Shown here: one piece after another, positions 185 to 55,648 of the stretch
How the letters are laid out: each line of letters begins with the position of its first letter
Position numbering within the stretch: position 1 is the first letter of the stretch
Origin: Naegleria gruberi
Taxonomy: Eukaryota
DNA: 64,000 nucleotides
Assembly: GCA_000004985.1 (NCBI GenBank)
Contig: GG738866.1
Direction: 5' to 3' (one strand)
The notes under the pieces: generated by a model
Seen by the model: only the letters and a program-made list of their open reading frames with translations
Database searches by the model: none
What the model was told of the DNA's origin: nothing
Translations under genes and position numbers: made by a program

Positions 185-2090
185 TTATTTGTGTATGAGT
201 GAATCAATAACTGAATAGATGGTACTTCCCATAATAACTAATCCCATCAAGAGTGTTAAGGCAGAACAGATTTTCAAAATTGTAAATCTTCCAGGTTCTA
301 ACTTTAAAGCGAGTAAACATGGTAAAATATAAGCCATGCTACAAGCACTAACACCTCCTGTGATATTGAAAACAATTCCCAAATCAGTTACTGAAAGGGC
401 AATAACTAAGGCCAACCCCATAACAAAGAATGTTGCACAATAGTGAATTACAGACTTCTTCAATTGTTTAGCCTTCTTGCTAACACCATTTTCATCGAGG
501 TCTGGATTATTATTTAGGAGAGCATTGGTTTCTGTGCTAGTCTTCTTTTTTGGCCAGCACCCAATAATTCCATTCTTTGAATTGTACCAATCTTCAAACA
601 AAACTTCTATAACTAGAATGATACTATTTCTTGGCATGAATGCAGAATATGGAATTGAGAAAACAATAGAAACTGTCAAAAACATTCTTCCTACAATAGC
701 AGCTGTGACATTCTTTGGGAATAAGTCCAAAACATTGGCTTCTTCCAAATTTCTATCCCAGAAAATCAAATAACCACCAATACCCATAGCTGTACAACAA
801 ATAACAGTCATAATAACAGTCGCAAATACTACAATGTAATACCTCAGTCTAGTAGCTCTTCTCAACTCTTGGAAAACGTGGAAGCTCATATCGTGACATA
901 TATAAATGTACGCCAGATTACCAAGAGATGACATAAACTTTGGATGTACAAACTGAAAAGCTTCCTGCCTGTCGTGAGGAATGTATCGTTTAGGTCCAAA
1001 TAAAAGCTCATAATTTACAATAGCTGTGACAGCAAATACAGAAAAAACAGCTGCAAATGAGAAGAATGCAAAACTACCAAGTCTCTTTTGAAGAGCAATT
1101 GGAAGCAAGGCAACTGCCAAATAAATTAAGATAGCTCTTCTACTCAAAAATATACTATCAGAGTCAAATGCATATGCTAAAAGATCAGGAACAACTCTAT
1201 TATGTGTTAATCTATAAAATTAGAGAAATACATACTGTCCAAACATGAGTAATTGAGCACAAGCACCTCCAAAATTGAAGAAAAATATAAAAACACAAGT
1301 CAAAAAGAATCCAATCTTTCCAAAACCTAACATGGCCAACTCTGGTAATGTAGTTTTTAAATGCCTCCTTGATAATTCGTACACTAAACAAAGTGTGAAA
1401 GCAGTCACTACACCAAACAATACAAACCAAATAATTGACATGTAAAGACCACTGGATGCAACTACTTGAGGCATACTGACAGTACCTGGGCTAATAACAT
1501 CATTAATTAAATTCCAAATTGAGAAAAATAATCCTGTCTTTTTCATACTCATTAATTCCTTCCATAATTTGTCTTGTCTCTGTTTTCTCTTCAATTTTCG
1601 AGCTTCCTTTTCCTCATCAGGTAAATTTTCATTTGAAGTATTAATTGAATTTACATTTTCCAAACTATTAGTTGATTTCTTTTTTGGTACAAAATAATCA
1701 TGATTCATGTCATTTACTACAAGAGTAGAACCTTCATCAGTTCTCCTTGTTGTATCTATTGGAACTCGTTGACCAGTTGAATCAAAGAAGACAACTTCTT
1801 CTTCTTGGTCTTCATGATTTTTCTTATTGAATATCTTACTAAACAATGACTTCTTTTTAGATTTTGGTGGATATGATCCTGCTTGAATATCATCATAATT
1901 AGGAGCAGAATAATACATTCCATTTTGTTCTACACTATTACCATGGTGATTACTACTATTATTATTAATTAATATTCCTGCAGATGGTTGATATGAAAAG
2001 GCTTGGTCAAATGTTGGTGAAACAATAATTGATGAGCCTGTAGTAGTTTCGGACGAATCCATCGTATTGAAATGATATTGATGCGGAGCC
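185..2090 (-). CDS. Amino-acid transporter (Aa_trans/AVT-SLC38-like), two exons: 1236..2090 and 185..1197, intron 1198..1235
   Basis: Two minus-strand ORFs (1220..2155, 185..1147). The protein is polytopic membrane: ~11 hydrophobic helices after a hydrophilic S/N-rich N-terminus. In-frame junction GGACA|GTATGT...CATATAG|AGTTGTT gives ..AQLLMFGQ-VVPDLLAYAFDSDSIFL.. ATG at 2090 (MAPHQYHF..). Confidence 0.6.
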
Positions 2091-2801
2091 ATTTCTAAAA
2101 TAAATATATTTAAAAATGATAACAAAATTATAATAATAATAAATAAATATTTCAAAATAAGATAATTTTTCTCTCTTCAAAAATTTAATATTGTGTGTTG
2201 TGTTGTGATGATGGAAGGTTTTGTTTTCAACTCGCTTCTATAACTTGGAGAAAGAGAATTGATGATGAGCAAGTGTGTGAAACGTTTTTTTCTTCTTCGA
2301 TCCTCGCCGATTGTTTTGTGAAAACTCCGAGGAGAGAGTTTTGCAAAGGATGAACAAGTTTGGGAGTGAGACCAATTTGAAATACAAACAAGAAAGTGCA
2401 GAAGTTTTCAATTCCAATTCAATTGAAGTATTTTCTTTCTCAGAAACATGAAATATTGAGTTTTTCAATATTTTCATTTAAATTCATCACATACATGGTT
2501 GATTCCTATGATATAAAGTATTCCAAATGAAACTATTTGAAAAGAATAGACTAATGGGATCAGTAAATAGTTCAATAATCTTTTCTTTTTCGAATAGAAA
2601 CTGAACATTACCAGATATTACAAATTTTCGAGAAATTCCTTACATCACTTCTCACCAACAACAAATGTAACTGAACGATTTATTGAATTAACCAATAACG
2701 TTCTTTTGAAAATCATCATGAGACTAATAAGGATCGGAAATAGATGGAGGACATTCTTATTGTAAACTTCTAAAACAATGATGTATTAATAATACAAAAA
2801 A

Positions 2802-4745
2802 ATGCGTCGAAATAAAACCTCACAAGATAAGCAAGATGTAGTGGAGGAGGTGAATGAGGTTGAGAAGGTTGATTCTCAACAAAAAGAAGAGATAATGCAA
2901 GCACCACCACCTGAAAGTAAAGAACAAATTGAGAAGAACCTAGTTGTGGATCATGCTAGAAAGCCTAAAACAGTTGAGGATTTCTTTTTGGAACGTCCAT
3001 CATTATTAACATTTGAAGAGTCGGATTCTGAAGACGAATTGGATTTAAAGAAGAAGAAGAAAGTTAGCTTTGATGGATTTATGAATTTGACAATAATTTT
3101 TCTTGTTGCAGCAGTGATAAGAACAATGATTGATAATTTATCAGAGAGAGGTTTATTATTTCCGAATCTGGGTTTATTACATTGTATAAGTGATGAGTTA
3201 ATTCAAAGATCTTGTGTTGATGTATTAATATTTACATTGACTTATAATTCTGTAATTTATTTGAATAGTTCTTTGAGAATGTATTTATTGCCACTTATTG
3301 GAAAAGATGGATCAATTGTCGACAAGTTAATAACAATTATTGAGACATTGGTGTTTTATGGATCTACATTTTCATATATTGGAATATTTGTAGTGGCAAT
3401 TTTCATCAAGAGACTGTCATTGATGGTGAATATTGTAATCGTTTTCACAATGATGATCTATGGAATGAAAGCATACAGTTATTATGATTATATTAGAAGA
3501 AGAAAGTTTACTTTGAAGAAGGAAGGAAAGAGTGTAAATAGCGACGATGAAAGAAATATTGAAAAACCAACATCTCCAATTTCTCTCTTCAGGGAGTATT
3601 GCTACTTTTTATTTGCTCCAACATTGTGCTTTTTTAGGAGTTATCCAATGACCAATACCATTCGAATTTCTTTCATTCTAAAACAGGTTTTCAGTATTCT
3701 TATCTGTGGACTTGTAGGATGGTTTATATTTATTCAGTATTTGGAACCACTTTTTAGAAATAGTGCCAGTGTTGATCTTACTCCTCCAAGTATTGAGCAT
3801 CTGATCACATTGTTTGAGGAAAACAAAAACAGCTCAACACAGAACATTATTGATGCATTTAGAGGATCTAAATCTGATCAACACTTTCTTAATAATTTAG
3901 GAAAATTTGGATACTTGCTCCTCAAAACCAGTGTGCCTTGGTTTGTTTTGTGGTTGATTCTCAGTTTTGCATTCTTCCACTGCTATCTCAATATTCTTGC
4001 TGAATTATGTTGTTGGGGTGATAGATATTTTTTCAATGATTGGTGGAATGCTCCAGATTTTCAAACATTCTGGAAGAATTGGAATAGACCTGTACATCAA
4101 TGGCTCCTTCGTCACGTTTATCAACCTTCTCTCGGTTCTAATATTTCCAAGCCAATTTCTGTATTCTTTACCTTCTTGACATCAGCAATTCTTCATGAAA
4201 TCTGTATGGCCATGGTGTTCAGAAGCTTGAAACTATACTTTTTCTATGCAATGATTGTACAAGCTCCATTTGTGTTACTTGCTCAATATTTTGGTCAATA
4301 CAAGCCAAGAAAAGAGAAAAAGGATAAACAAAAGGAGTCAGGAATGAAGAAAGTTCCATCACTTTTGCAGCTTCCAGCAAAAGCTGAAGAAAAATTCAAA
4401 GAACTTGAAAGAAGAATATTGGAATTTAAATCTGATGTTGAAAAGAAATTGAAATCAAGAAAAAGCAAGAACTTTTTAAATAGACTTGGTAATACTTCAA
4501 TGTGGATATCACTATTCCTTGGTCAACCATTACTATGCTTTGCTTACTTCCAAGTTTTTTATAGCTCTGAAAGTATGATTTGTGATGTAAGAAATAACAA
4601 GTATGGATATGGATTGGTATTTGATAGATGGTCTGATTCCTTCTCCAACGGAACCATTTCAAATATTGGTAATAGACTCATTGATGGAGAATGGAAAATA
4701 ATATTGGATCAATTATTTTCCATTGTTACAGCAGCTTTGTTGTAA
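2802..4745 (+). CDS. DGAT1: Diacylglycerol O-acyltransferase 1 (MBOAT family, DGAT1/ACAT-type)
   Basis: Single 647-aa ORF. Contains YFLFAPTLCF, the motif identical to the DGAT1 signature, plus the MBOAT motif FGDRYFFNDWWNA..FWKNWNRPVHQWLLRHVY, and multiple TM helices. Confidence 0.85.
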   Translation: MRRNKTSQDKQDVVEEVNEVEKVDSQQKEEIMQAPPPESKEQIEKNLVVDHARKPKTVEDFFLERPSLLTFEESDSEDELDLKKKKKVSFDGFMNLTIIFLVAAVIRTMIDNLSERGLLFPNLGLLHCISDELIQRSCVDVLIFTLTYNSVIYLNSSLRMYLLPLIGKDGSIVDKLITIIETLVFYGSTFSYIGIFVVAIFIKRLSLMVNIVIVFTMMIYGMKAYSYYDYIRRRKFTLKKEGKSVNSDDERNIEKPTSPISLFREYCYFLFAPTLCFFRSYPMTNTIRISFILKQVFSILICGLVGWFIFIQYLEPLFRNSASVDLTPPSIEHLITLFEENKNSSTQNIIDAFRGSKSDQHFLNNLGKFGYLLLKTSVPWFVLWLILSFAFFHCYLNILAELCCWGDRYFFNDWWNAPDFQTFWKNWNRPVHQWLLRHVYQPSLGSNISKPISVFFTFLTSAILHEICMAMVFRSLKLYFFYAMIVQAPFVLLAQYFGQYKPRKEKKDKQKESGMKKVPSLLQLPAKAEEKFKELERRILEFKSDVEKKLKSRKSKNFLNRLGNTSMWISLFLGQPLLCFAYFQVFYSSESMICDVRNNKYGYGLVFDRWSDSFSNGTISNIGNRLIDGEWKIILDQLFSIVTAALL

Positions 4746-4779: not shown

Positions 4780-7037
4780 CTAGTTCAACTCTTGACTTTC
4801 TTCATCTGTTGGAGTCTCATCACCACCATACGAAGGAGTAGAGGCAGAAACTCCATCACTTTCTGATAAATAGGTTGCACTCTTTGATTTAAATGAAATG
4901 TGACCCTTAATTCCTGTACTCACTGGTGGGAATTCATTACTTCTTTCTCTCAAACTGTATGGCAACAATTCGTACAGTTTCTGATCTCCATCGATACCTT
5001 TGAGAGTGAATTCTCCCAATGGTCTAACAACTGGAGGCATAATTTCACCACCAACAATTAAATCATGCAAATTATGCTTGATGAGCTCATAGATATTATC
5101 GTGAATAATAATTTGACCTCCGTTGGCAGCACTTGCAACTCTGGCACTCAAATTTACAGAATTACCAAAGTAATCCAATTTACCAACGTTATCCTTATGT
5201 ACATCAGGATTACAGATTGCTGTTCCCATTCTAACACGCACTCCTCTAAAGATAATGTTACCAAACTTGTCAACTTTGAATGCAGTTTCTTTGAAATTCA
5301 TTACATTAGTTGGCCAATCCAATTTCATCAATTCACTTTGAGATCTCAACATCCATCTAATAGCATTCAAATAATCCTTAAAGGCAACCATGAAACTGTC
5401 ACCTTGAGTTTTGATTTCATATCCTTGATATTCTTCCAATAATTTTCTCAGCAAGACATTGTGCAAATTGAGTGAAATTTTCATATCTTCTGTTGCTTCA
5501 CTCCATAACTTGGTGGATTCTTGAATATCTGTGAAAATAATTGGGAATTCTCCATCTTTTGCAGTTGGAGCATAGGCAATAACCTTATTTCTCTTTCTAA
5601 TGTGAGATCTCCATCCACATGCAATGCCAATTATAATCAATACACCAATTATTAAGGCAACTCCCAATACTGACACGAGAACTGCAATAATGACAACAGT
5701 GTTATCAACTTTACCAGTACAAATGAATACTGTTTCCTTCACTTGATCATAACAAAAGTTAACTCGCTGGTGAATATAGCCGAGTGCAGAGAAATCACCA
5801 AATACTGATGCAGTCTTACTAGATTTAACGTCATTACTCAATGAGATATAAGCTTGCTCAACAAATTCATTAGTATATGCTCCAATACCATAACTGGCAT
5901 TTGGAATGATTTGGAATTGGGTGGAAATGTCAATAGACTGTTTAGCTATTGTGGAATTGACAATACCCATTCCATCAACTTCTGCTGGCCATATGAGAGA
6001 ATTTACTTCACGCATCATCCACTGTTGATGGTATGTCTGATCTGGAAGAACGTTAATACACTTATCTTCATTATCACGACAGAATATCCATCCCATAATG
6101 ATAGACTTTATGAGACGAATAACAATATTTCTATTCTTTGTTGGATTAGCATTAAACCAGTCCATATTCATCATGAGACCATCTTCATACATTTGAGTCC
6201 CTTCTTCATTGAATCCCATCACATTAAAATCATTGAGTGTATACAGATCTGTCTTACTGTCTGTTTTTAACTTTTCCAGTAATTGAGCAAGTTCATTGTA
6301 AACCATAGCCATAATCACATCGTATCTGTCTGGTTGTGTGATTAGAGGAAGTGCAGAGTATGATTGTTGTCTCATGCTGAGCTCCGATTCTGGATTGATA
6401 TTGTACTTTCTCATGGTTGCTTTCAATGAATATCTATTCCATCATGTTATTTTGATCACTCAAGAATTCCTTGATCAGAATACTTACTCATAACCAGACC
6501 AATAACCGATATTCTTATCTTTGAATTGTGGAAATTTAGTAATCCCAGACTTTTTAGTGCTCACCATAACAGTTGCAGATCGTTTAAAGTGTTGAAACAC
6601 GTCCACAAGATTGACACCATCAATGGCTCTTGCTACTAACATTCTAGAGAAGAGAATAACTGCAAACTGTGCAGAACCTGATTTAATGTTCTCTATTGGA
6701 TCAACACCAGCTCCTCCTTTATATAATTGTGATAATTAAAATAATGTTAAGGAACATTGATTAGTATGCAAGTTAGTACGACCCATATAAAATTAAAAAC
6801 ATACCTTGCTTAATAATAACATTGAGACATTCATTCTCAAAGTATCCCATCTCCTTTGCAGCTATAAAACCTGCATACTGTGCTTGAAAAACCCATCCCA
6901 ACTGTATGGCCACTGTATCCGTCCCGTTGGGGCAAGAAATTGCTGTAGTTCTTGTAATGAGATGTGCCAAACACAACAAGAGAAGTGAGAGTGTCAGCAA
7001 GAAGTGTCTGTTATGTGTTGAGTAGATGATTTTCATG
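4780..7037 (-). CDS. Receptor-type class III adenylyl cyclase: signal peptide, NMT1/THI5/SsuA-like solute-binding ectodomain, one TM, cyclase catalytic domain. Exons 6805..7037, 6488..6716, 4780..6433
   Basis: Exon 1 is a signal peptide (MKIIYSTHNRHFLLTLSLLLLCLAHL) followed by IQLGWVFQAQYAGFIAAKEMGYFE. After a GTATGT..AAAG intron comes GGAGVDPIENIKSGSAQFAVILFSRMLVARAIDG..., the NMT1/SsuA fold. A GTAAGTA..AATAG intron joins ..YWSGYE to YSLKATMRKY.. of the long ORF. A TM follows (VVIIAVLVSVLGVALIIGVLIIIGIACGW), then FTDIQESTKLW...KTQGDSFMVAF...GVRVRMGT..GNSVNLSARV, the class III cyclase motifs. The Lys in KTQGD suggests ATP specificity. Confidence 0.75.
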
Positions 7038-9240: not shown

Positions 9241-10365
9241 TTATTGAATAATCATGTTAGGAGAAAATGTCATGGCACTGCTAATGAGTTGTAAACGAGG
9301 TGCATTTTCAGCGTTTCCGATATTGTTTCCACTAATATTAAGTGCTTTTAGTTTATCAAGAATGGTGCTGGAAGTGAGTTTGTATGCAACTTCTTGAGTA
9401 ATTGAGCACATGCTCAAATCAAGAACTTGTAGGGATGGAAATGGATTTGATACTCGGGACACTTGAATGAAACTTTCGAATGATTCGCCAATAGAGTTAC
9501 AAGAAAGACATAACATTCTTAGTTCTGTAATGTGTTTGCACTTTGCTAATGGCTCAATATTTGAAATGTTATTCGATCTCAGATTGAGAATCCTCAAATT
9601 TACAAGTTGCGAATTTTCTGCAAACTCTTTTAGCCCATTATCATTTAACTTACAATTACTTAAATCTAAATGGGTTAGATTTTTAAGGTTTTTGCACAAC
9701 TCTGCAACATTTCCAATAGGATTGTCATTGATAGATAAATCAGTTAACTGACTCAATTTGTTTGAAATATTGACAATTGCTTCTCCTCCCATAAAGGCTG
9801 AATTTTTTGAAATGTCCAATTTGGTTAAATGAACCATGGTGCTACATAGGTATTTCACTCCAATATTTCCAACATTATTATTTCGAATAGATAATGATCT
9901 AAGTGATTCAGCAATATCTTGATTCACTGAAATTAATCTCATAGCTACATCATCAATAGAACACGAGTTCAGATTCAACTCTTCTAATTGTTTAAACTTG
10001 GATGTTGTCCCCAAAAAACTTGCTCCAGTTCTATGAATCATGTTATTTTGTAGGTTCAAGCTTTTTAAATTTGGAAAACCATCACAATTACATAAGGCTT
10101 CTATTACTTCCTTCGTTAAATTATTTTCCGATAGATTTAGGCTCGTTAATTTAAGGAGATGATTTTTGCTACTCTTCAACATGAGGGACAACCTCTGGAT
10201 ACCAATTCTCTTCTTAAAAGATAAATCCAGTGAGAGAGGTACGCTTAGAGAAATCCTAAAAAATGTTTTGGAAACTCGCATCACTCTGATCCGATCAATA
10301 GAATCAATAAATTCCAATATGCAATAAATCATATCATCTGGAATGTATGTGGTTAGTTGAGCCAT
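9241..10365 (-). CDS. F-box-like / leucine-rich-repeat (RNI-type LRR) protein
   Basis: 374-aa ORF. N-terminal F-box-like segment (IYCILEFIDSIDRIRVMRVSKTFFRI) followed by ~10 LxxLxLxxNxI(g)xxG repeats. Confidence 0.65.
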   Translation of the reverse strand: MAQLTTYIPDDMIYCILEFIDSIDRIRVMRVSKTFFRISLSVPLSLDLSFKKRIGIQRLSLMLKSSKNHLLKLTSLNLSENNLTKEVIEALCNCDGFPNLKSLNLQNNMIHRTGASFLGTTSKFKQLEELNLNSCSIDDVAMRLISVNQDIAESLRSLSIRNNNVGNIGVKYLCSTMVHLTKLDISKNSAFMGGEAIVNISNKLSQLTDLSINDNPIGNVAELCKNLKNLTHLDLSNCKLNDNGLKEFAENSQLVNLRILNLRSNNISNIEPLAKCKHITELRMLCLSCNSIGESFESFIQVSRVSNPFPSLQVLDLSMCSITQEVAYKLTSSTILDKLKALNISGNNIGNAENAPRLQLISSAMTFSPNMIIQ

Positions 10366-52469: not shown

Positions 52470-54728
52470 TTAGAAATAGGCAAAGAAGAAGGTAACAACA
52501 ATTAAAATGTAAACAATAACCAATGCAGAACCTTGGAAGTAATTTGTTTTACCATCCAAACAAACAAAGTTCAAAACCAAAACACCAAAGAAAATTGCAA
52601 TCAAATTAATTTGAGGGAACATTAAATTGAAAATTCTCAACTCATCACCACTGAATAATAAAGCACTCACCAATACAAGTACTGGCATTTGAATTAGTGC
52701 AATTTGGATTGAGGCAGAGTTACCAATTTCCAAAGCAAGTGAAATATTATTTTGTAAAGCAAATTGAATGGCATTTACAAATTCAGCACAACTTGGCACA
52801 ATACTTAAAAAAGTTAAGCCAGCAAACATTGGATTAACACCAATCATATCAAATGCTGGTTCTAATGAGGCTGTCATTACTTCAGCCACTAGGGAATAAA
52901 CAATTGTACATAACACTAAAATACCAACACACAACCAAATTGGCCATACAGCACCAATTTCTTCCTCTTCTTGGTGATTGACATGATCTTCCTTATTCTC
53001 AGGAACTGGTGGTCTTTCAATCAAATAACGATGGGTTTTTAAGGAGAAAATCAATCCAATCAGATAGGCAATAGGTAAGATAGCAGAAACTGTATAAGCT
53101 AATGGTAAAGCTTGTCTTGTATAGACTGGATCTGTCAACATATCCTTTTGTACATATACACAACTATCACAAACTAATCCATATCCTTGTGTAGTATTCA
53201 CATTGGATCCGTTTATATTACCAACAATTGGTAATTTCAATCCTTGAGTTTCATTGACATTAATTGCTGCATTCACACAGACACCACATTTCAATTCATA
53301 ATGACCTGAATACAATTGATAGAATAATGAAGGTAACAATGCTGCAACTACACTCACCAATAATAGAGCACTTGAAACACTAGCAGCTTGTTTGTTAAAG
53401 AATTGTTGCTTAAACTTGAGACCTCCTAGGACCATGGCTAGACCAGGCACTAATAAGATAGTAAGTAATAAAGCTCCAGTTATGGCACTGACAACTACAT
53501 CATGTAAATTCTTAGATAAGGCTAAAATATATAAAATCATTTCAATAATACTTCCACATATCGAGTTCAAAAGAGCACCAATAAGGAAATTAGTTTGGGC
53601 TGAAATGGCAGCAATAGCCTTACCAATCAAATATGATAATGGAACTGTTGAAATCAAACAGAATGGGAATATCAAGACGGAATATTTTGTTACAAATTCT
53701 TCACCAAATGCATAACCCAATACTATAGAAACTAAACTGAAAGGTAACATGTTAAATAAAATGACATTGAGTCCAAAAACATTGTGTTTGTAGTAATAAA
53801 TATTAGTGGCTTGAATTGTACATAATATGACATCAGAAGTAACCTTAGGTGGATATTCATTACTGACATTTAAACTTAAGAAATGTCTGTACAAAAATTT
53901 GATACCTTCAAAATGAATCTTACTAGTTGGAATACCAACAATTGAAAACCAACTCATTAATGAAACCATCAAGTGAGAAAATAAAAGTATTGGAGCAATC
54001 AATAACCAAATAAGATAGGAAATGACATCTAGGACAGTATATCTTTGATACCATTTCAATTTGGAGTCATCATTGTAATAGTCTACATTTTCTGCAATTG
54101 GAACTTGTTCAGCATTCAAAAGAGGACTTGACTCAGTCCTTCTACTAGTTTTTACAACCTTCACACGTTCAACATATTTACCAAATGGATATAAATAATA
54201 AAAGGAAAATTTGAAACATTTCAAACCATATGGAATTGTAAAAATTGCTAAACAAGACAAAACTCCAACCATTAAATATGTTAAAAACATCCACCAACCA
54301 ATAAATATCACATAGAGTACATTTCCAATACTCAAAAAGCTCTTTTTCTCAAAACTAGATAAACTCCTGTCATTCCACATATGCAACTGTTTAACTTTAT
54401 CACTTCTTTCCTCAAATTTTCTTTCACCTAACATTCCCTTCCATGGTTTAAATCCAAACAAGTAATTTTGATAATTCTTAGTAGTATCAATCTTATTAGA
54501 GGCACGTTCCACAACCACGGGATGAGCATTCTCTGCATTGACCTCACTATTTCCAGAAAATGAAGAATCAGGCAACAATTTACGTTGTCTCATTCCATCG
54601 TCATTGGTTGTTGGGGAGAGTATGATTTGGTCATCATCGATTGGTTCTTCCAAAGACTTCATTTTGCATTGTGTCTTGGTGTATTTGTATTGATGAGTCT
54701 TCTTGTAACAGACTCGGAAATGGTTCAT
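52470..54728 (-). CDS. Ca2+/cation antiporter (CaCA) superfamily cation/H+ exchanger with long N-terminal membrane extension (VNX1/CAX-like)
   Basis: Two alpha-repeat signatures, GLTFLSIVPSCAEFVNAIQFALQNNISLALEIGNSASIQIALIQMPVLVL and ..GKAIAAISAQTNFLIGALLNSICGSIIEMIL. More than 12 TM helices. Confidence 0.65.
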   Translation of the reverse strand: MNHFRVCYKKTHQYKYTKTQCKMKSLEEPIDDDQIILSPTTNDDGMRQRKLLPDSSFSGNSEVNAENAHPVVVERASNKIDTTKNYQNYLFGFKPWKGMLGERKFEERSDKVKQLHMWNDRSLSSFEKKSFLSIGNVLYVIFIGWWMFLTYLMVGVLSCLAIFTIPYGLKCFKFSFYYLYPFGKYVERVKVVKTSRRTESSPLLNAEQVPIAENVDYYNDDSKLKWYQRYTVLDVISYLIWLLIAPILLFSHLMVSLMSWFSIVGIPTSKIHFEGIKFLYRHFLSLNVSNEYPPKVTSDVILCTIQATNIYYYKHNVFGLNVILFNMLPFSLVSIVLGYAFGEEFVTKYSVLIFPFCLISTVPLSYLIGKAIAAISAQTNFLIGALLNSICGSIIEMILYILALSKNLHDVVVSAITGALLLTILLVPGLAMVLGGLKFKQQFFNKQAASVSSALLLVSVVAALLPSLFYQLYSGHYELKCGVCVNAAINVNETQGLKLPIVGNINGSNVNTTQGYGLVCDSCVYVQKDMLTDPVYTRQALPLAYTVSAILPIAYLIGLIFSLKTHRYLIERPPVPENKEDHVNHQEEEEIGAVWPIWLCVGILVLCTIVYSLVAEVMTASLEPAFDMIGVNPMFAGLTFLSIVPSCAEFVNAIQFALQNNISLALEIGNSASIQIALIQMPVLVLVSALLFSGDELRIFNLMFPQINLIAIFFGVLVLNFVCLDGKTNYFQGSALVIVYILIVVTFFFAYF

Positions 54729-55648
54729 CTTCTTCACTAGGATGCATCTTTAATTTGCTATTATATGTTTAATATATGAAAGGATATTTAGCATTGATAA
54801 CAACAAGGTTATCCTAACAGTCTCTAAACTTGGTGATGATTCAATCAAGGGATAACAGTAGCGACTGTTGGAGTTTTTTTTGTTATTTTCGTTAATTAAC
54901 TTTTTCACCAATTTTGAAAGCAACCAAACACACATGTAGTTCATGCTATTCAATCCTTTGAGTGGAGCCATTCATTCATCACACTGGCCAACACAAGTTG
55001 TGTTACTGACTTTACACTGCTCTTCGTACTTCAATAAAGGGCATTGTAATGATTGGCAGCGTTCTTCGATTAAGCAAACGCGCAATGATTCGATGCTTTA
55101 GAATTTATAGTATCGTTACTAAAACAAACATTTACACCAAGTTTGTTAATTGCATTTTGTTTGTTTTTTTAAAATTTTCAATTATTACAATTTTAATGTT
55201 ATTCAGACTCGTGATTGACTAAATTGCCGTAGATGGTGATCTACAGATACTTCAGTAATTATTGAGGAATTTAAAGTGCCATATAGGTTTGTCATAATTT
55301 AGAAATTTTTTTTTTGTTGTTAAAACAGTCGAAAATGAGAAGGAATTTTTTAGAGATTGAGTATGTCCAATTTCTTCCTTTAGTCTACTTCCAAGTATTG
55401 AGAACGAATGAACAAAATATTAAGGATATTAATAAGTTGTCATATTTAGTTTTCATTCATTTCTCAACTTTGCAGAAGAGAGTTGGAATGCTTGATTATT
55501 GTCTTTGTAACCAACCAATATCTGGCTTGGTGTCTTGCTTGCCAACTGCCAATTCAAACAATTCTAAAACTCATTTTCTCAGATATTACAACTTCCAGTT
55601 CAAAAAATAATTAGTAAATTTTGAACAACAAAAAAAACTAATCACAAC

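What the first reader, a model, noticed from the sequence alone, without database searches (positions are those of the whole stretch)
4780..7037. Single-pass receptor adenylyl cyclase whose ectodomain is a periplasmic-binding-protein (NMT1/THI5/SsuA-type) fold
Splicing the three minus-strand exons yields, in order: signal peptide; NMT1/SsuA-like solute-binding domain (IQLGWVFQAQYAGF..GGAGVDPIENIKSGSAQFAVILFSRMLVARAIDG..); one TM helix; class III cyclase catalytic domain (FTDIQEST.., KTQGDSFMVAF, GNSVNLSARV). The NMT1/SsuA fold normally binds small solutes such as sulfonates, nitrate, thiamine precursors or bicarbonate in bacterial ABC systems and in yeast THI5. Fused to a cyclase, it would form a direct small-molecule-to-cAMP receptor. 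This differs from the CHASE-domain ACG of dictyostelids and from the LivJ-type ectodomains of trypanosomatid receptor cyclases.
Basis: partly seen in the sequence, partly recalled or inferred. Interest (0 to 1): 0.7.

Follow-up and report, generated by a model that had tools for sequence, protein, structure and literature searches.

The report
Solute-binding-domain receptor adenylyl cyclase, Naegleria
This Naegleria gruberi gene encodes a membrane receptor in which a bacterial-type nutrient-binding domain on the outside of the cell is joined through one membrane helix to a cAMP-making enzyme inside, a combination that I found in no paper and that the official annotation misses.

Summary
On the minus strand, three exons (7036-6805, 6716-6488, 6433-4780) give a 704-aa protein. 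In order it has a signal peptide, an NMT1/THI5-type class II periplasmic-binding-protein domain (Pfam E=1e-21), a Cys-bridged hairpin, one TM helix and a class III adenylyl cyclase domain (E=1e-18). All catalytic residues are intact, and the nearest solved relatives are Trypanosoma brucei receptor cyclases.

The fusion does not depend on splicing. Exon 3 alone is one ORF holding two thirds of the binding domain, the TM helix and the cyclase.

The window is Naegleria gruberi. GenBank annotates only a 156-aa fragment of this gene.

The same architecture occurs in an N. gruberi paralogue, in a diplonemid and in environmental sequences. The same ectodomain is also fused to a class C GPCR 7TM module and to chytrid multi-pass proteins.

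The closest bacterial relatives (37-39% identity) are ABC-transporter binding proteins. Their genes sit beside pyrimidine-catabolism or xanthine-dehydrogenase-family genes, so a nucleobase-like ligand is more likely than sulfonate, nitrate or bicarbonate.

The ligand, the enzyme activity and transcription are untested. I rate it a new variant of a known kind (Venus-flytrap receptor cyclases), of moderate to high interest.

The parts
6805..7036 (-). Exon 1. ATG at 7036, residues 1-77 plus one base. Encodes the signal peptide and the first strand and helix of the binding domain (QLGWVFQAQYAGF).
   Evidence: tblastn HSPs of homologues end at 6803
6717..6804 (-). Intron 1, 88 nt, GTATGT...AG, contains a TACTAAC box
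   Evidence: alignment is continuous across the junction
6488..6716 (-). Exon 2 (residues 78-154)
6434..6487 (-). Intron 2, 54 nt, GTAAGT...AG, with an in-frame stop directly after the donor
4780..6433 (-). Exon 3 (residues 154-704 plus stop at 4780-4782). One ORF holding the rest of the binding domain, the TM helix and the cyclase.
6941..7036 (-). Predicted signal peptide, residues 1-32 (basic n-region, FLLTLSLLLLCLAHLI core, TTA|IS cleavage motif)
   Evidence: hydropathy; read from the sequence; no SignalP run
5800..6934 (-). NMT1/THI5-type class II periplasmic-binding-protein ectodomain, residues ~35-365 (the range includes both introns). Three Cys pairs: 35/70, 272/279, 381/392. Sequons at N37, N313, N332.
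   Evidence: Pfam; PDB profile; 37-39% identity to bacterial ABC SBPs; 36 of 53 columns strictly conserved in 35 bacterial SBPs are retained
5719..5757 (-). Juxtamembrane FC-x11-C beta-hairpin, residues 380-392. Specific to eukaryotes, absent from bacterial SBPs.
   Evidence: alignment A1; modelled as a two-strand hairpin in both AF2 models
5611..5697 (-). Single transmembrane helix, residues 400-428, followed by basic RSHIRKRNK (positive-inside)
   Evidence: a long helix in the AF2 models
4975..5547 (-). Class III adenylyl cyclase catalytic domain, residues ~450-640. Metal Asp D456 and D499; adenine-specifying K495 and D574; R554/R556; transition-state N581 and R585; K632.
   Evidence: Pfam; PDB 1fx4 E=1.5e-23 and 1fx2 E=6e-21; motif positions; family alignment
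4783..4962 (-). C-terminal Ser/Thr- and acid-rich tail, residues 645-704, not conserved in homologues

Best explanation
The locus encodes a 704-aa type I membrane protein of Naegleria gruberi that most likely acts as a ligand-regulated receptor adenylyl cyclase.

Shown:
- The domain order is signal peptide, one NMT1/ThiY-type Venus-flytrap solute-binding domain, a disulfide-type beta-hairpin stalk, one TM helix, a ~22-residue linker, and a class III cyclase domain.
- The cyclase domain is of the kinetoplastid receptor-cyclase type. It carries the full catalytic set for ATP: D456/D499 for metals, K495/D574 for adenine, N581/R585 for the transition state.
- The ectodomain belongs to a eukaryotic clade that is sister to a specific subfamily of bacterial ABC-importer binding proteins. 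It keeps most of the residues that this subfamily conserves strictly.

Inferred:
- As in all homodimeric class III cyclases, the two active sites form at a dimer interface.
- A small molecule binding in the cleft between the two lobes closes the flytrap. This changes the geometry of the ectodomain dimer, the change passes through the rigid hairpin and TM helix, and productive pairing of the cytosolic catalytic domains is promoted or relieved. Intracellular cAMP changes as a result.
- The ligand is most likely a nucleobase-like N-heterocycle (pyrimidine or oxidised purine type). The genes for the closest bacterial homologues sit in operons with cytosine deaminase, dihydropyrimidinase, PreT/PreA-like reductase, beta-ureidopropionase-like hydrolase, or xanthine-dehydrogenase-family enzymes. 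The solved NMT1-family binding proteins bind thiamin or aminopyrimidines.
- For a bacterivorous amoeba, such a compound would be a plausible cue for prey or nutrients.
For: - Gene model and uninterrupted fusion ORF.
- Domains: (NMT1 E=1.1e-21; Guanylate_cyc E=1e-18).
- Topology: (two hydrophobic segments; all six ectodomain Cys and three sequons lie N-terminal of the TM; basic residues follow it).
- Cyclase: T. brucei GRESAG4.3 and 4.1 E=1.5e-23 and 6e-21, including the insertion that aligns with the trypanosomal delta-subdomain; all catalytic residues present and conserved in the paralogue, in P0051 and in the Lacrimia protein.
- Fold: 4nmy 7.6e-25, ThiY 6e-12, THI5 7e-11; paralogue model, ectodomain pLDDT >90, 4nmy and 3ix1 TMt 0.74-0.75, cyclase matches 1fx4/1fx2.
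- Recurrence of the architecture, which argues for function: (N. gruberi paralogue P0001; 692-aa P0051; Lacrimia lanifica P0085).
- Eukaryotic ectodomains are monophyletic in 96 of 100 bootstraps.
- 36 of 53 bacterial-invariant columns are retained.
- Ligand class: (XDH-family three-subunit enzyme plus AllG/AllH next to the ABC genes); (dihydropyrimidinase TIGR02033, 568 bits); (cytosine deaminase NF006685, 590 bits, plus PreT/PreA-like genes, CN_hydrolase and an aminotransferase).
- Literature: NMT1-family structures bind thiamin or aminopyrimidine (PMC10443332); NMT1-annotated transport genes are tied to purine oxidation (PMC7373994).
Against: - There is no transcript, protein or activity evidence. 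GenBank holds only a 156-aa partial model for this gene.
- The ligand inference rests on operon context of homologues that are only 32-39% identical, and the contexts differ: three types plus one orphan. No riboswitch was found to pin the ligand down.
- Pocket residues could not be mapped because no model coordinates were available.
- Trypanosomal receptor cyclases, the closest catalytic relatives, still have no known ligand and respond to pH, osmotic and proteolytic stress (PMC6027212).
- The TM-to-cyclase linker is short and has no recognisable signalling helix or HAMP domain, so the transmission mechanism is conjecture.
- The AF2 model of the window's own fragment gave a low-confidence cyclase domain (pLDDT <50) because the alignment was shallow.
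Confidence: 0.6

Rival explanations
1. The protein is an active membrane adenylyl cyclase, but the ectodomain is not a small-molecule receptor. Instead it serves dimerisation or localisation, or it senses physical cues (osmolarity, pH, proteolysis), as proposed for trypanosomal receptor cyclases and Dictyostelium ACG.
For: Ligands of the closest catalytic relatives are unknown, and those enzymes are activated by acid, hypotonic or proteolytic stress (PMC6027212). 17 of 53 bacterial-invariant positions have changed in the window protein.
Against: Most strictly conserved SBP residues, including polar and aromatic ones (Q45, W48, Q51, Q119, W150, Q177, D192, Y199, N200, E201, D238, W269, H289, E296), are kept across roughly ten divergent eukaryotic receptors. 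This is hard to explain without retained ligand binding. The same ectodomain is also coupled to a class C GPCR 7TM module, a ligand-receptor context.
Confidence: 0.2
2. This is the same receptor mechanism, but the ligand is thiamin or its pyrimidine precursor (HMP/FAMP), as in the closest solved structures, so the protein would be a vitamin B1 sensor.
For: The best structural and sequence matches in PDB are the thiamin-bound SBP 4nmy and FAMP-binding ThiY 3ix1. Known NMT1-family ligands are thiamin and aminopyrimidine (PMC10443332).
Against: Identity to those structures is only 16-18%. The first-strand motif differs: W-x-P-N-x-x-H in 4nmy, ThiY and THI5, against W-x-x-Q-A-Q-F/Y here and in the bacterial sister subfamily. 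None of the bacterial sister loci carries thiamin genes or a TPP riboswitch. NMT1/THI5 annotation has already been shown to mislead about thiamin (PMC7373994).
Confidence: 0.12
3. The locus is a decaying or non-expressed paralogue (pseudogene), or the three-exon model is wrong, and the full-length receptor is not made.
For: The genome annotators called only a 156-aa partial protein here. No expression data were available.
Against: The reading frame is intact over 704 codons with canonical splice sites. All catalytic and most SBP-invariant residues are retained. Homologue alignments cross both junctions without indels. Full-length equivalents exist in other organisms, including a diplonemid transcript.
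Confidence: 0.05

Closest known systems
Trypanosomatid receptor-type adenylyl cyclases (ESAG4/GRESAG4; PDB 1fx2, 1fx4)
   Same: Type I single-pass topology with an extracellular Venus-flytrap-type domain and a cytosolic class III catalytic domain. The catalytic domains are the closest solved relatives (E=1.5e-23), and they include an insertion that aligns with the trypanosomal delta-subdomain. Both hosts belong to Discoba.
   Different: The trypanosomal ectodomain is ~90 kDa with two VFT modules (PMC6027212). From general knowledge these are of the LivJ/type I class. Here there is one ~330-residue NMT1-type (type II) module plus a Cys hairpin, and no LivJ or ANF_receptor match at E<=1.
Bacterial NitT/TauT-family ABC importer substrate-binding proteins of the NMT1 (PF09084) family, notably the Caldilineaceae/actinobacterial subfamily found here, and ThiY/4nmy
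   Same: 37-39% identity over ~88% of the ectodomain. Two Cys pairs are shared: 35/70 and 272/279 in window numbering. 36 of 53 invariant columns are kept. The fold is the same.
   Different: The bacterial proteins are free periplasmic or lipoprotein components encoded next to permease and ATPase genes. The Naegleria domain is covalently tethered to a TM helix and a cyclase, and it has gained the juxtamembrane hairpin.
Metazoan natriuretic-peptide/receptor guanylyl cyclases
   Same: The same logic: a VFT ectodomain, a single TM helix and a dimeric class III cyclase.
   Different: Those receptors have a type I PBP (ANF_receptor) ectodomain, a kinase-homology domain, a coiled-coil linker and E/C guanine specificity. 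Here the ectodomain is a type II NMT1 PBP, there is no kinase-homology domain, the linker is short and the specificity pair is K/D (adenine).
Bacterial sensor proteins with NMT1-type periplasmic domains (histidine kinases, GGDEF cyclases)
   Same: An NMT1-type binding domain is used as the extracytoplasmic sensor of a signalling enzyme: P0007 and P0009 carry NMT1 plus histidine-kinase domains, and P0010 carries NMT1 plus GGDEF.
   Different: The output domains differ, the hosts are prokaryotes, and these proteins are only distantly related (23-28% identity). They branch outside the eukaryote + ABC-SBP clade.

Membership tests
Class III nucleotidyl cyclase, homodimeric adenylyl-specific type (PF00211) | Profile match above the curated threshold | tested here: met
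   68 bits against a cut-off of 21.9, E=1e-18; PDB 1fx4 E=1.5e-23
Class III nucleotidyl cyclase, homodimeric adenylyl-specific type (PF00211) | Two metal-binding Asp, transition-state Asn and Arg, and a phosphate-binding Arg/Lys, all in one chain | tested here: met
   D456, D499, N581, R585, R554/R556, K632. Assigned by motif correspondence to canonical C1/C2 residues, which I recalled from general knowledge.
Class III nucleotidyl cyclase, homodimeric adenylyl-specific type (PF00211) | Lys/Asp substrate-specifying pair (ATP rather than GTP) | tested here: met
   K495 in IKTQGD and D574 in LDYFGN
Class III nucleotidyl cyclase, homodimeric adenylyl-specific type (PF00211) | Measured cyclase activity and dimerisation | not testable with these tools
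   Needs an enzyme assay
NMT1/THI5-like class II periplasmic binding protein (PF09084) | Profile match above the curated threshold | tested here: met
   78 bits against a cut-off of 20.5, E=1.1e-21; family profile against PDB gives 4nmy 7.6e-25, covering the whole SBP
NMT1/THI5-like class II periplasmic binding protein (PF09084) | Two-lobe type II PBP fold | tested here: met
   Tested on the 49-51%-identical paralogue: AF2 ectodomain pLDDT >90; Foldseek 4nmy TMt 0.74, 3ix1 TMt 0.75. The window's own residues 155-395 are modelled at pLDDT 75-96, but the complete window ectodomain could not be submitted.
NMT1/THI5-like class II periplasmic binding protein (PF09084) | Ligand binding in the inter-lobe cleft | not testable with these tools
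   Only conservation and operon context of homologues are available
THI5/NMT1 HMP-P synthase (the enzyme branch of PF09084) | PLP-binding Lys62 and substrate His66 of yeast THI5 | tested here: not met
   By transitive alignment through the profile, THI5 GLK-AMIH aligns with window AVILFSRM, which has no Lys or His at those columns. The residue numbers of THI5 are from memory.
ABC-importer substrate-binding protein (NitT/TauT family) | A free secreted or lipoprotein SBP encoded with cognate permease and ATPase genes | tested here: not met
   The domain is fused in one ORF to a TM helix and a cyclase. The neighbouring genes are MBOAT and an RRM protein. SsuA_fam TIGR01728 scores only 14 bits against a cut-off of 163.
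Trypanosomatid receptor adenylyl cyclase (ESAG4/GRESAG4) | Single-pass topology with a GRESAG4-type catalytic domain | tested here: met
Trypanosomatid receptor adenylyl cyclase (ESAG4/GRESAG4) | Large ectodomain with two type I (LivJ-like) VFT modules | tested here: not met
   There is one NMT1 type II module of ~330 residues, and no Peripla_BP or ANF_receptor hit at E<=1. The trypanosomal description is from PMC6027212.
Dictyostelium ACG-type cyclase | CHASE extracellular domain | tested here: not met
   No CHASE hit at E<=1. The ACG architecture is from general knowledge.

The most novel reading that the evidence does not exclude
The NMT1-type ectodomain with its FC-x(10-12)-C stalk may define a previously undescribed eukaryotic receptor module. 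On this reading it derives from a bacterial nucleobase-type ABC binding protein, has a single origin (monophyletic in 96 of 100 bootstraps), and has been plugged into at least three different transducers: a kinetoplastid-type adenylyl cyclase in Heterolobosea and diplonemids, a class C GPCR 7TM bundle, and chytrid multi-pass proteins. In Naegleria it would give direct nucleobase-to-cAMP signalling, for example to sense bacterial prey. It would also be the first protist receptor cyclase with a predictable ligand.
Probability: 0.3. Interest if true: 0.75.

Novelty: new variant of a known kind. Interest (0 to 1): 0.58.

Why it matters
Receptor-type adenylyl cyclases of protists, notably the large ESAG4/GRESAG4 family of trypanosomes, have been orphan receptors for decades. 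No ligand is known, and it is debated whether they are receptors at all (PMC6027212).

This Naegleria protein has the same catalytic module. Its ectodomain, however, has close bacterial relatives of transporter type, and their operon context narrows the ligand to a short, purchasable list: cytosine, uracil, thymine, dihydropyrimidines, xanthine, urate, thiamin and HMP. That makes the question of whether a protist receptor cyclase is gated by a small molecule directly testable with a soluble 360-residue ectodomain and a standard cAMP assay.

The finding also shows that eukaryotes recruited a second PBP class (type II NMT1) into the same receptor formats already known for type I PBPs, namely cyclase and class C GPCR. 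This is a neat case of parallel domain shuffling.

Finally, it corrects a mis-annotated gene in the reference N. gruberi genome.

Tried and rejected
I used the exon-3 translation and the paralogue P0001 instead. The complete window ectodomain was therefore never modelled.
- The AF2 model of window residues 155-704 gave an unusable cyclase domain (pLDDT <50) and was not fold-searched.
- The afdb50 fold library was unavailable, so I obtained no named taxonomic survey through AlphaFold DB.
- The profile search with alignment A1 in the word-indexed database added little.
- The genomic locus of paralogue P0001 was not on record. I could not rebuild its missing first exon or compare intron positions.
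- A Rfam scan of seven bacterial SBP loci found no riboswitch (only group II intron pieces in L007), so there is no RNA-based ligand clue.
- The ThiY/THI5 structure paper (PMC2957805), the Naegleria genome paper and the supplementary ligand table of PMC10443332 were not held. Ligand-contact residues could not be mapped.
- Literature searches for NMT1/PF09084 together with cyclase/PF00211, or with 7tm_3, found nothing relevant. Naegleria, Acrasis, Euglena and Physarum genome papers mention many cyclases but not this architecture.
- I considered and rejected the following: a THI5-type enzyme (catalytic Lys/His absent); an SsuA, taurine, nitrate or bicarbonate binder (weak or no family match, and the operon context points elsewhere); guanylyl cyclase specificity (the K/D pair is present); and a tandem second copy in the window (tblastn finds only this locus).
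Full report
**What is in the sequence**

The window is AT-rich (GC ~33%) and comes from Naegleria gruberi. Four neighbouring ORFs are identical to GenBank proteins EFC44804 (MBOAT O-acyltransferase, 2802-4745 +), EFC44889 (LRR protein, 9241-10365 -), EFC44805 and EFC44806. All lie on a 469,335-bp scaffold.

On the minus strand between 7036 and 4780 there are three exons: 7036-6805, 6716-6488 and 6433-4780. They are separated by GT..AG introns of 88 and 54 nt. Joined, they give 2115 nt, which is 704 codons plus a stop. It is the first in-frame ATG.

**Is the gene model right?**

Four intron-free homologues each give two tblastn HSPs: a bacterial SBP (P0016), a diplonemid transcript product (P0085) and two environmental proteins (P0051, P0119). 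The HSPs break exactly at intron 1, with contiguous query residues on either side. The multiple alignment runs through both exon junctions (IIKQ|GGAGVDP and WSGYE|YSLKA) without indels relative to bacterial proteins. Intron 2 has an in-frame TAA directly after the donor, so it must be spliced out.

The domain fusion does not rest on splicing at all. Exon 3 is a single 548-codon ORF. It contains the C-terminal two thirds of the binding domain, the membrane helix and the cyclase.

**Domains and topology**

Pfam finds NMT1 (PF09084) at E=1.1e-21 for residues 52-257, and Guanylate_cyc (PF00211) at E=1e-18 for residues 450-609. No CHASE, ANF_receptor or LivJ-type domain appears at E<=1.

Hydropathy shows just two hydrophobic stretches. 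The first is the N-terminal signal-like segment (residues 10-30, followed by TTA|IS). The second is residues 400-428, followed by RSHIRKRNK. Six cysteines (35/70, 272/279, 381/392) and three N-glycosylation sequons lie on the predicted extracellular side.

A profile of the ectodomain family hits the thiamin-bound ABC binding protein 4nmy over its whole length (E=7.6e-25). It also hits ThiY 3ix1 (6e-12) and THI5 (7e-11).

The spliced protein could not be submitted for structure prediction. The 49-51%-identical N. gruberi paralogue P0001 was modelled instead, with mean pLDDT 79 and ectodomain pLDDT >90. The model shows a PBP ectodomain, a two-strand juxtamembrane hairpin, one long helix through the membrane, and a cyclase domain. 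Foldseek matches 4nmy and 3ix1 (target-normalised TM 0.74-0.75) for the ectodomain, and T. brucei 1fx4/1fx2 and Ma1120 for the cyclase.

The window's own residues 155-704 gave a confident ectodomain remainder, hairpin and TM helix. Its cyclase domain was low-confidence because the alignment was shallow there, so I did not use that part.

**The cyclase**

The closest solved sequences are the T. brucei receptor cyclases GRESAG4.3 and 4.1 (E=1.5e-23 and 6e-21). The alignments include the segment between LDW and the VRVRMG strand, which corresponds to the trypanosomal delta-subdomain and is missing in Ma1120.

By motif correspondence with canonical class III cyclases (general knowledge), the chain carries:
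- both metal aspartates, D456 and D499;
- the adenine-specifying K495 and D574;
- the transition-state N581 and R585;
- phosphate-binding R554/R556 and K632.

These residues are conserved in the paralogue, in P0051 and in the Lacrimia protein. They are lost in P0165, which looks like a pseudo-cyclase. The prediction is an active, homodimeric adenylyl cyclase rather than a guanylyl cyclase.

**Annotation status and relatives**

A HMMER scan of 1.84 billion representative proteins with exon 3, followed by exact look-ups, gave these results:
- The only database protein identical to this locus is EFC44887.1/XP_002677631.1, 'predicted protein, partial', 156 aa. It equals residues 442-597 of my model. 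The reference annotation therefore misses the receptor.
- A paralogue on another N. gruberi scaffold (P0001, 633 aa) carries PF09084 plus PF00211. Its model starts at MGFYDNECLNV, so it lacks the signal peptide and the first strand.
- The same architecture occurs in a 692-aa environmental protein (P0051, 44% identity), in the diplonemid Lacrimia lanifica (P0085, 871 aa), and partially in P0105.
- The same ectodomain is fused to a class C GPCR seven-helix bundle in P0115 (7tm_3 E=1e-34).
- It is also fused to a Cys-rich, multi-pass region in chytrid fungi (P0003, P0041, P0045).

All eukaryotic members share an FC-x(10-12)-C motif just before the membrane. Bacterial proteins lack it. In a neighbour-joining tree the eukaryotic ectodomains are monophyletic in 96 of 100 bootstraps and sister to a bacterial ABC-SBP subfamily.

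**What might it bind?**

The ectodomain is 37-39% identical over ~88% of its length to ~380-aa ABC substrate-binding proteins, two of them named as Caldilineaceae; other members at 33-35% identity come from unnamed metagenome contigs. It retains 36 of the 53 columns that are strictly conserved among 35 such proteins, and most changes are conservative.

The gene neighbourhoods of seven bacterial members fall into four groups:
- Four sit in an operon with two permeases, an ATPase, a three-subunit xanthine-dehydrogenase-family molybdoenzyme, a PF04199 hydrolase and AllG/AllH (L001-L003, L006).
- One is next to dihydropyrimidinase (TIGR02033, 568 bits), a CN-hydrolase and an aminotransferase (L005).
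- One is followed by cytosine deaminase (NF006685, 590 bits), a second NMT1 SBP, an aminotransferase, an M20 hydrolase, a CN-hydrolase and PreT/PreA-like reductase subunits. This amounts to a complete reductive pyrimidine catabolic set (L007).
- One is an orphan (L004).

The literature points the same way. Solved NMT1-family SBPs bind thiamin or aminopyrimidines (PMC10443332). Many 'NMT1/THI5-like' transport genes are controlled by the xanthine/urate riboswitch and belong to purine oxidation, not thiamin metabolism (PMC7373994). No riboswitch was detected in my loci.

The first-strand motif also differs. Here and in the bacterial sister group it is W-x-x-Q-A-Q-F/Y. In ThiY, 4nmy and THI5 it is W-x-P-N-x-x-H.

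My best guess is therefore a nucleobase-like N-heterocycle. Thiamin or HMP is a weaker alternative. This step is inference.

**How it most likely works**

The architecture is shown. The following is inferred by analogy with homodimeric class III cyclases, natriuretic-peptide receptors and the model proposed for trypanosomal cyclases (PMC6027212). The receptor acts as a dimer. Ligand-induced closure of the flytrap re-orients the ectodomains. The rigid hairpin and the TM helix transmit this change, and the cytosolic catalytic domains are brought into, or released from, the head-to-tail dimer that forms two active sites. cAMP changes as a result.

The ~22-residue linker has no recognisable signalling helix, so the transmission details are open. 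The Ser/Thr- and acid-rich tail (residues 645-704) may be regulatory.

**Comparison with known systems**

In function the protein resembles Venus-flytrap receptor cyclases: trypanosomal ESAG4/GRESAG4 and metazoan receptor guanylyl cyclases. It passes the membership tests for class III adenylyl cyclases and for the NMT1 PBP family.

It fails three others:
- the defining ectodomain feature of trypanosomal cyclases (two type I VFT modules);
- the definition of a free ABC binding protein;
- the catalytic Lys/His of THI5 enzymes.

**Novelty**

I found no paper that mentions this domain combination. Genome papers on Naegleria, Acrasis, Euglena and Physarum that list cyclase architectures do not mention it either.

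The combination is machine-visible for the paralogue (Pfam tags) but not for this gene. I classify it as a new variant of a known kind.

**Verdict**

Ligand gating is plausible but untested. A nucleobase-type ligand is a reasoned hypothesis. Interest is moderate to high, because the finding offers a tractable route to de-orphanise a protist receptor cyclase and reveals a second PBP class recruited into eukaryotic receptor formats.

Noticed in passing
window 5005-5472 (-), within the cyclase domain: The reference N. gruberi annotation for this gene is only a 156-aa 'predicted protein, partial' (EFC44887.1/XP_002677631.1), equal to residues 442-597 of the 704-aa model. The paralogue's model (P0001) is also N-terminally truncated: it starts at MGFYDNECLNV and has no signal peptide.
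   Followed up: yes
P0115 (674 aa, Logan assembly; not in the window): The same NMT1-type ectodomain and FC..C stalk are fused to a class C GPCR seven-helix domain (7tm_3, E=1e-34). Class C GPCRs normally carry type I (ANF_receptor) flytraps. The source organism is unknown, and no paper was found that holds both terms.
   Followed up: partly
P0003, P0041, P0045 (chytrids Borealophlyctis, Phlyctochytrium, Gaertneriomyces): Chytrid fungi encode the same ectodomain. In P0045 and partial P0003 the stalk is followed by a Cys-rich stretch, which in P0045 gives a weak, sub-threshold ephrin-receptor-like Pfam hit; P0045 alone continues into several hydrophobic segments. P0041 ends just after the start of the stalk motif. 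This suggests a third receptor format of unknown output.
   Followed up: partly
P0165 / L008 (Logan SRR26825217): This protein has an NMT1 ectodomain, a TM helix and a cyclase-like domain that has lost the metal-binding Asp and the Asn/Arg transition-state residues. It is probably a pseudo-cyclase receptor.
   Followed up: partly
P0047, P0048 and many other top hits: P0048 is from the diplonemid Namystynia karyoxenos; P0047 is an unnamed EukProt transcriptome entry ('Hpha'). These two, and many other top hits whose source I did not look up, are giant proteins (1,400-2,500 aa) with 4-6 tandem matches to this kinetoplastid-type cyclase domain.
   Followed up: no
L001-L003, L006 (Caldilineaceae and related bacterial contigs): A conserved operon holds AllG, a PF04199 hydrolase, a three-subunit XDH-family molybdoenzyme, an ABC importer and an NMT1 SBP (AllH lies nearby in L006). 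Its substrate is unknown. It may be an oxidative nucleobase catabolic cluster.
   Followed up: partly
window 6717-6804 (-): Intron 1 contains a perfect yeast-type TACTAAC box and a second TACTAAT, but these lie ~55 and ~40 nt from the 3' AG.
   Followed up: no
window 52470-54737 (-): This ORF combines a YccF inner-membrane domain (PF03733) with a Na/Ca-exchanger domain (PF01699). This is an unusual pairing that I did not examine further.
   Followed up: no
window 185-2155 (-): Two adjacent ORFs each match part of the Aa_trans amino-acid transporter profile (positions 4-108 and 125-409). They are most likely two exons of one gene split by a short intron.
   Followed up: no
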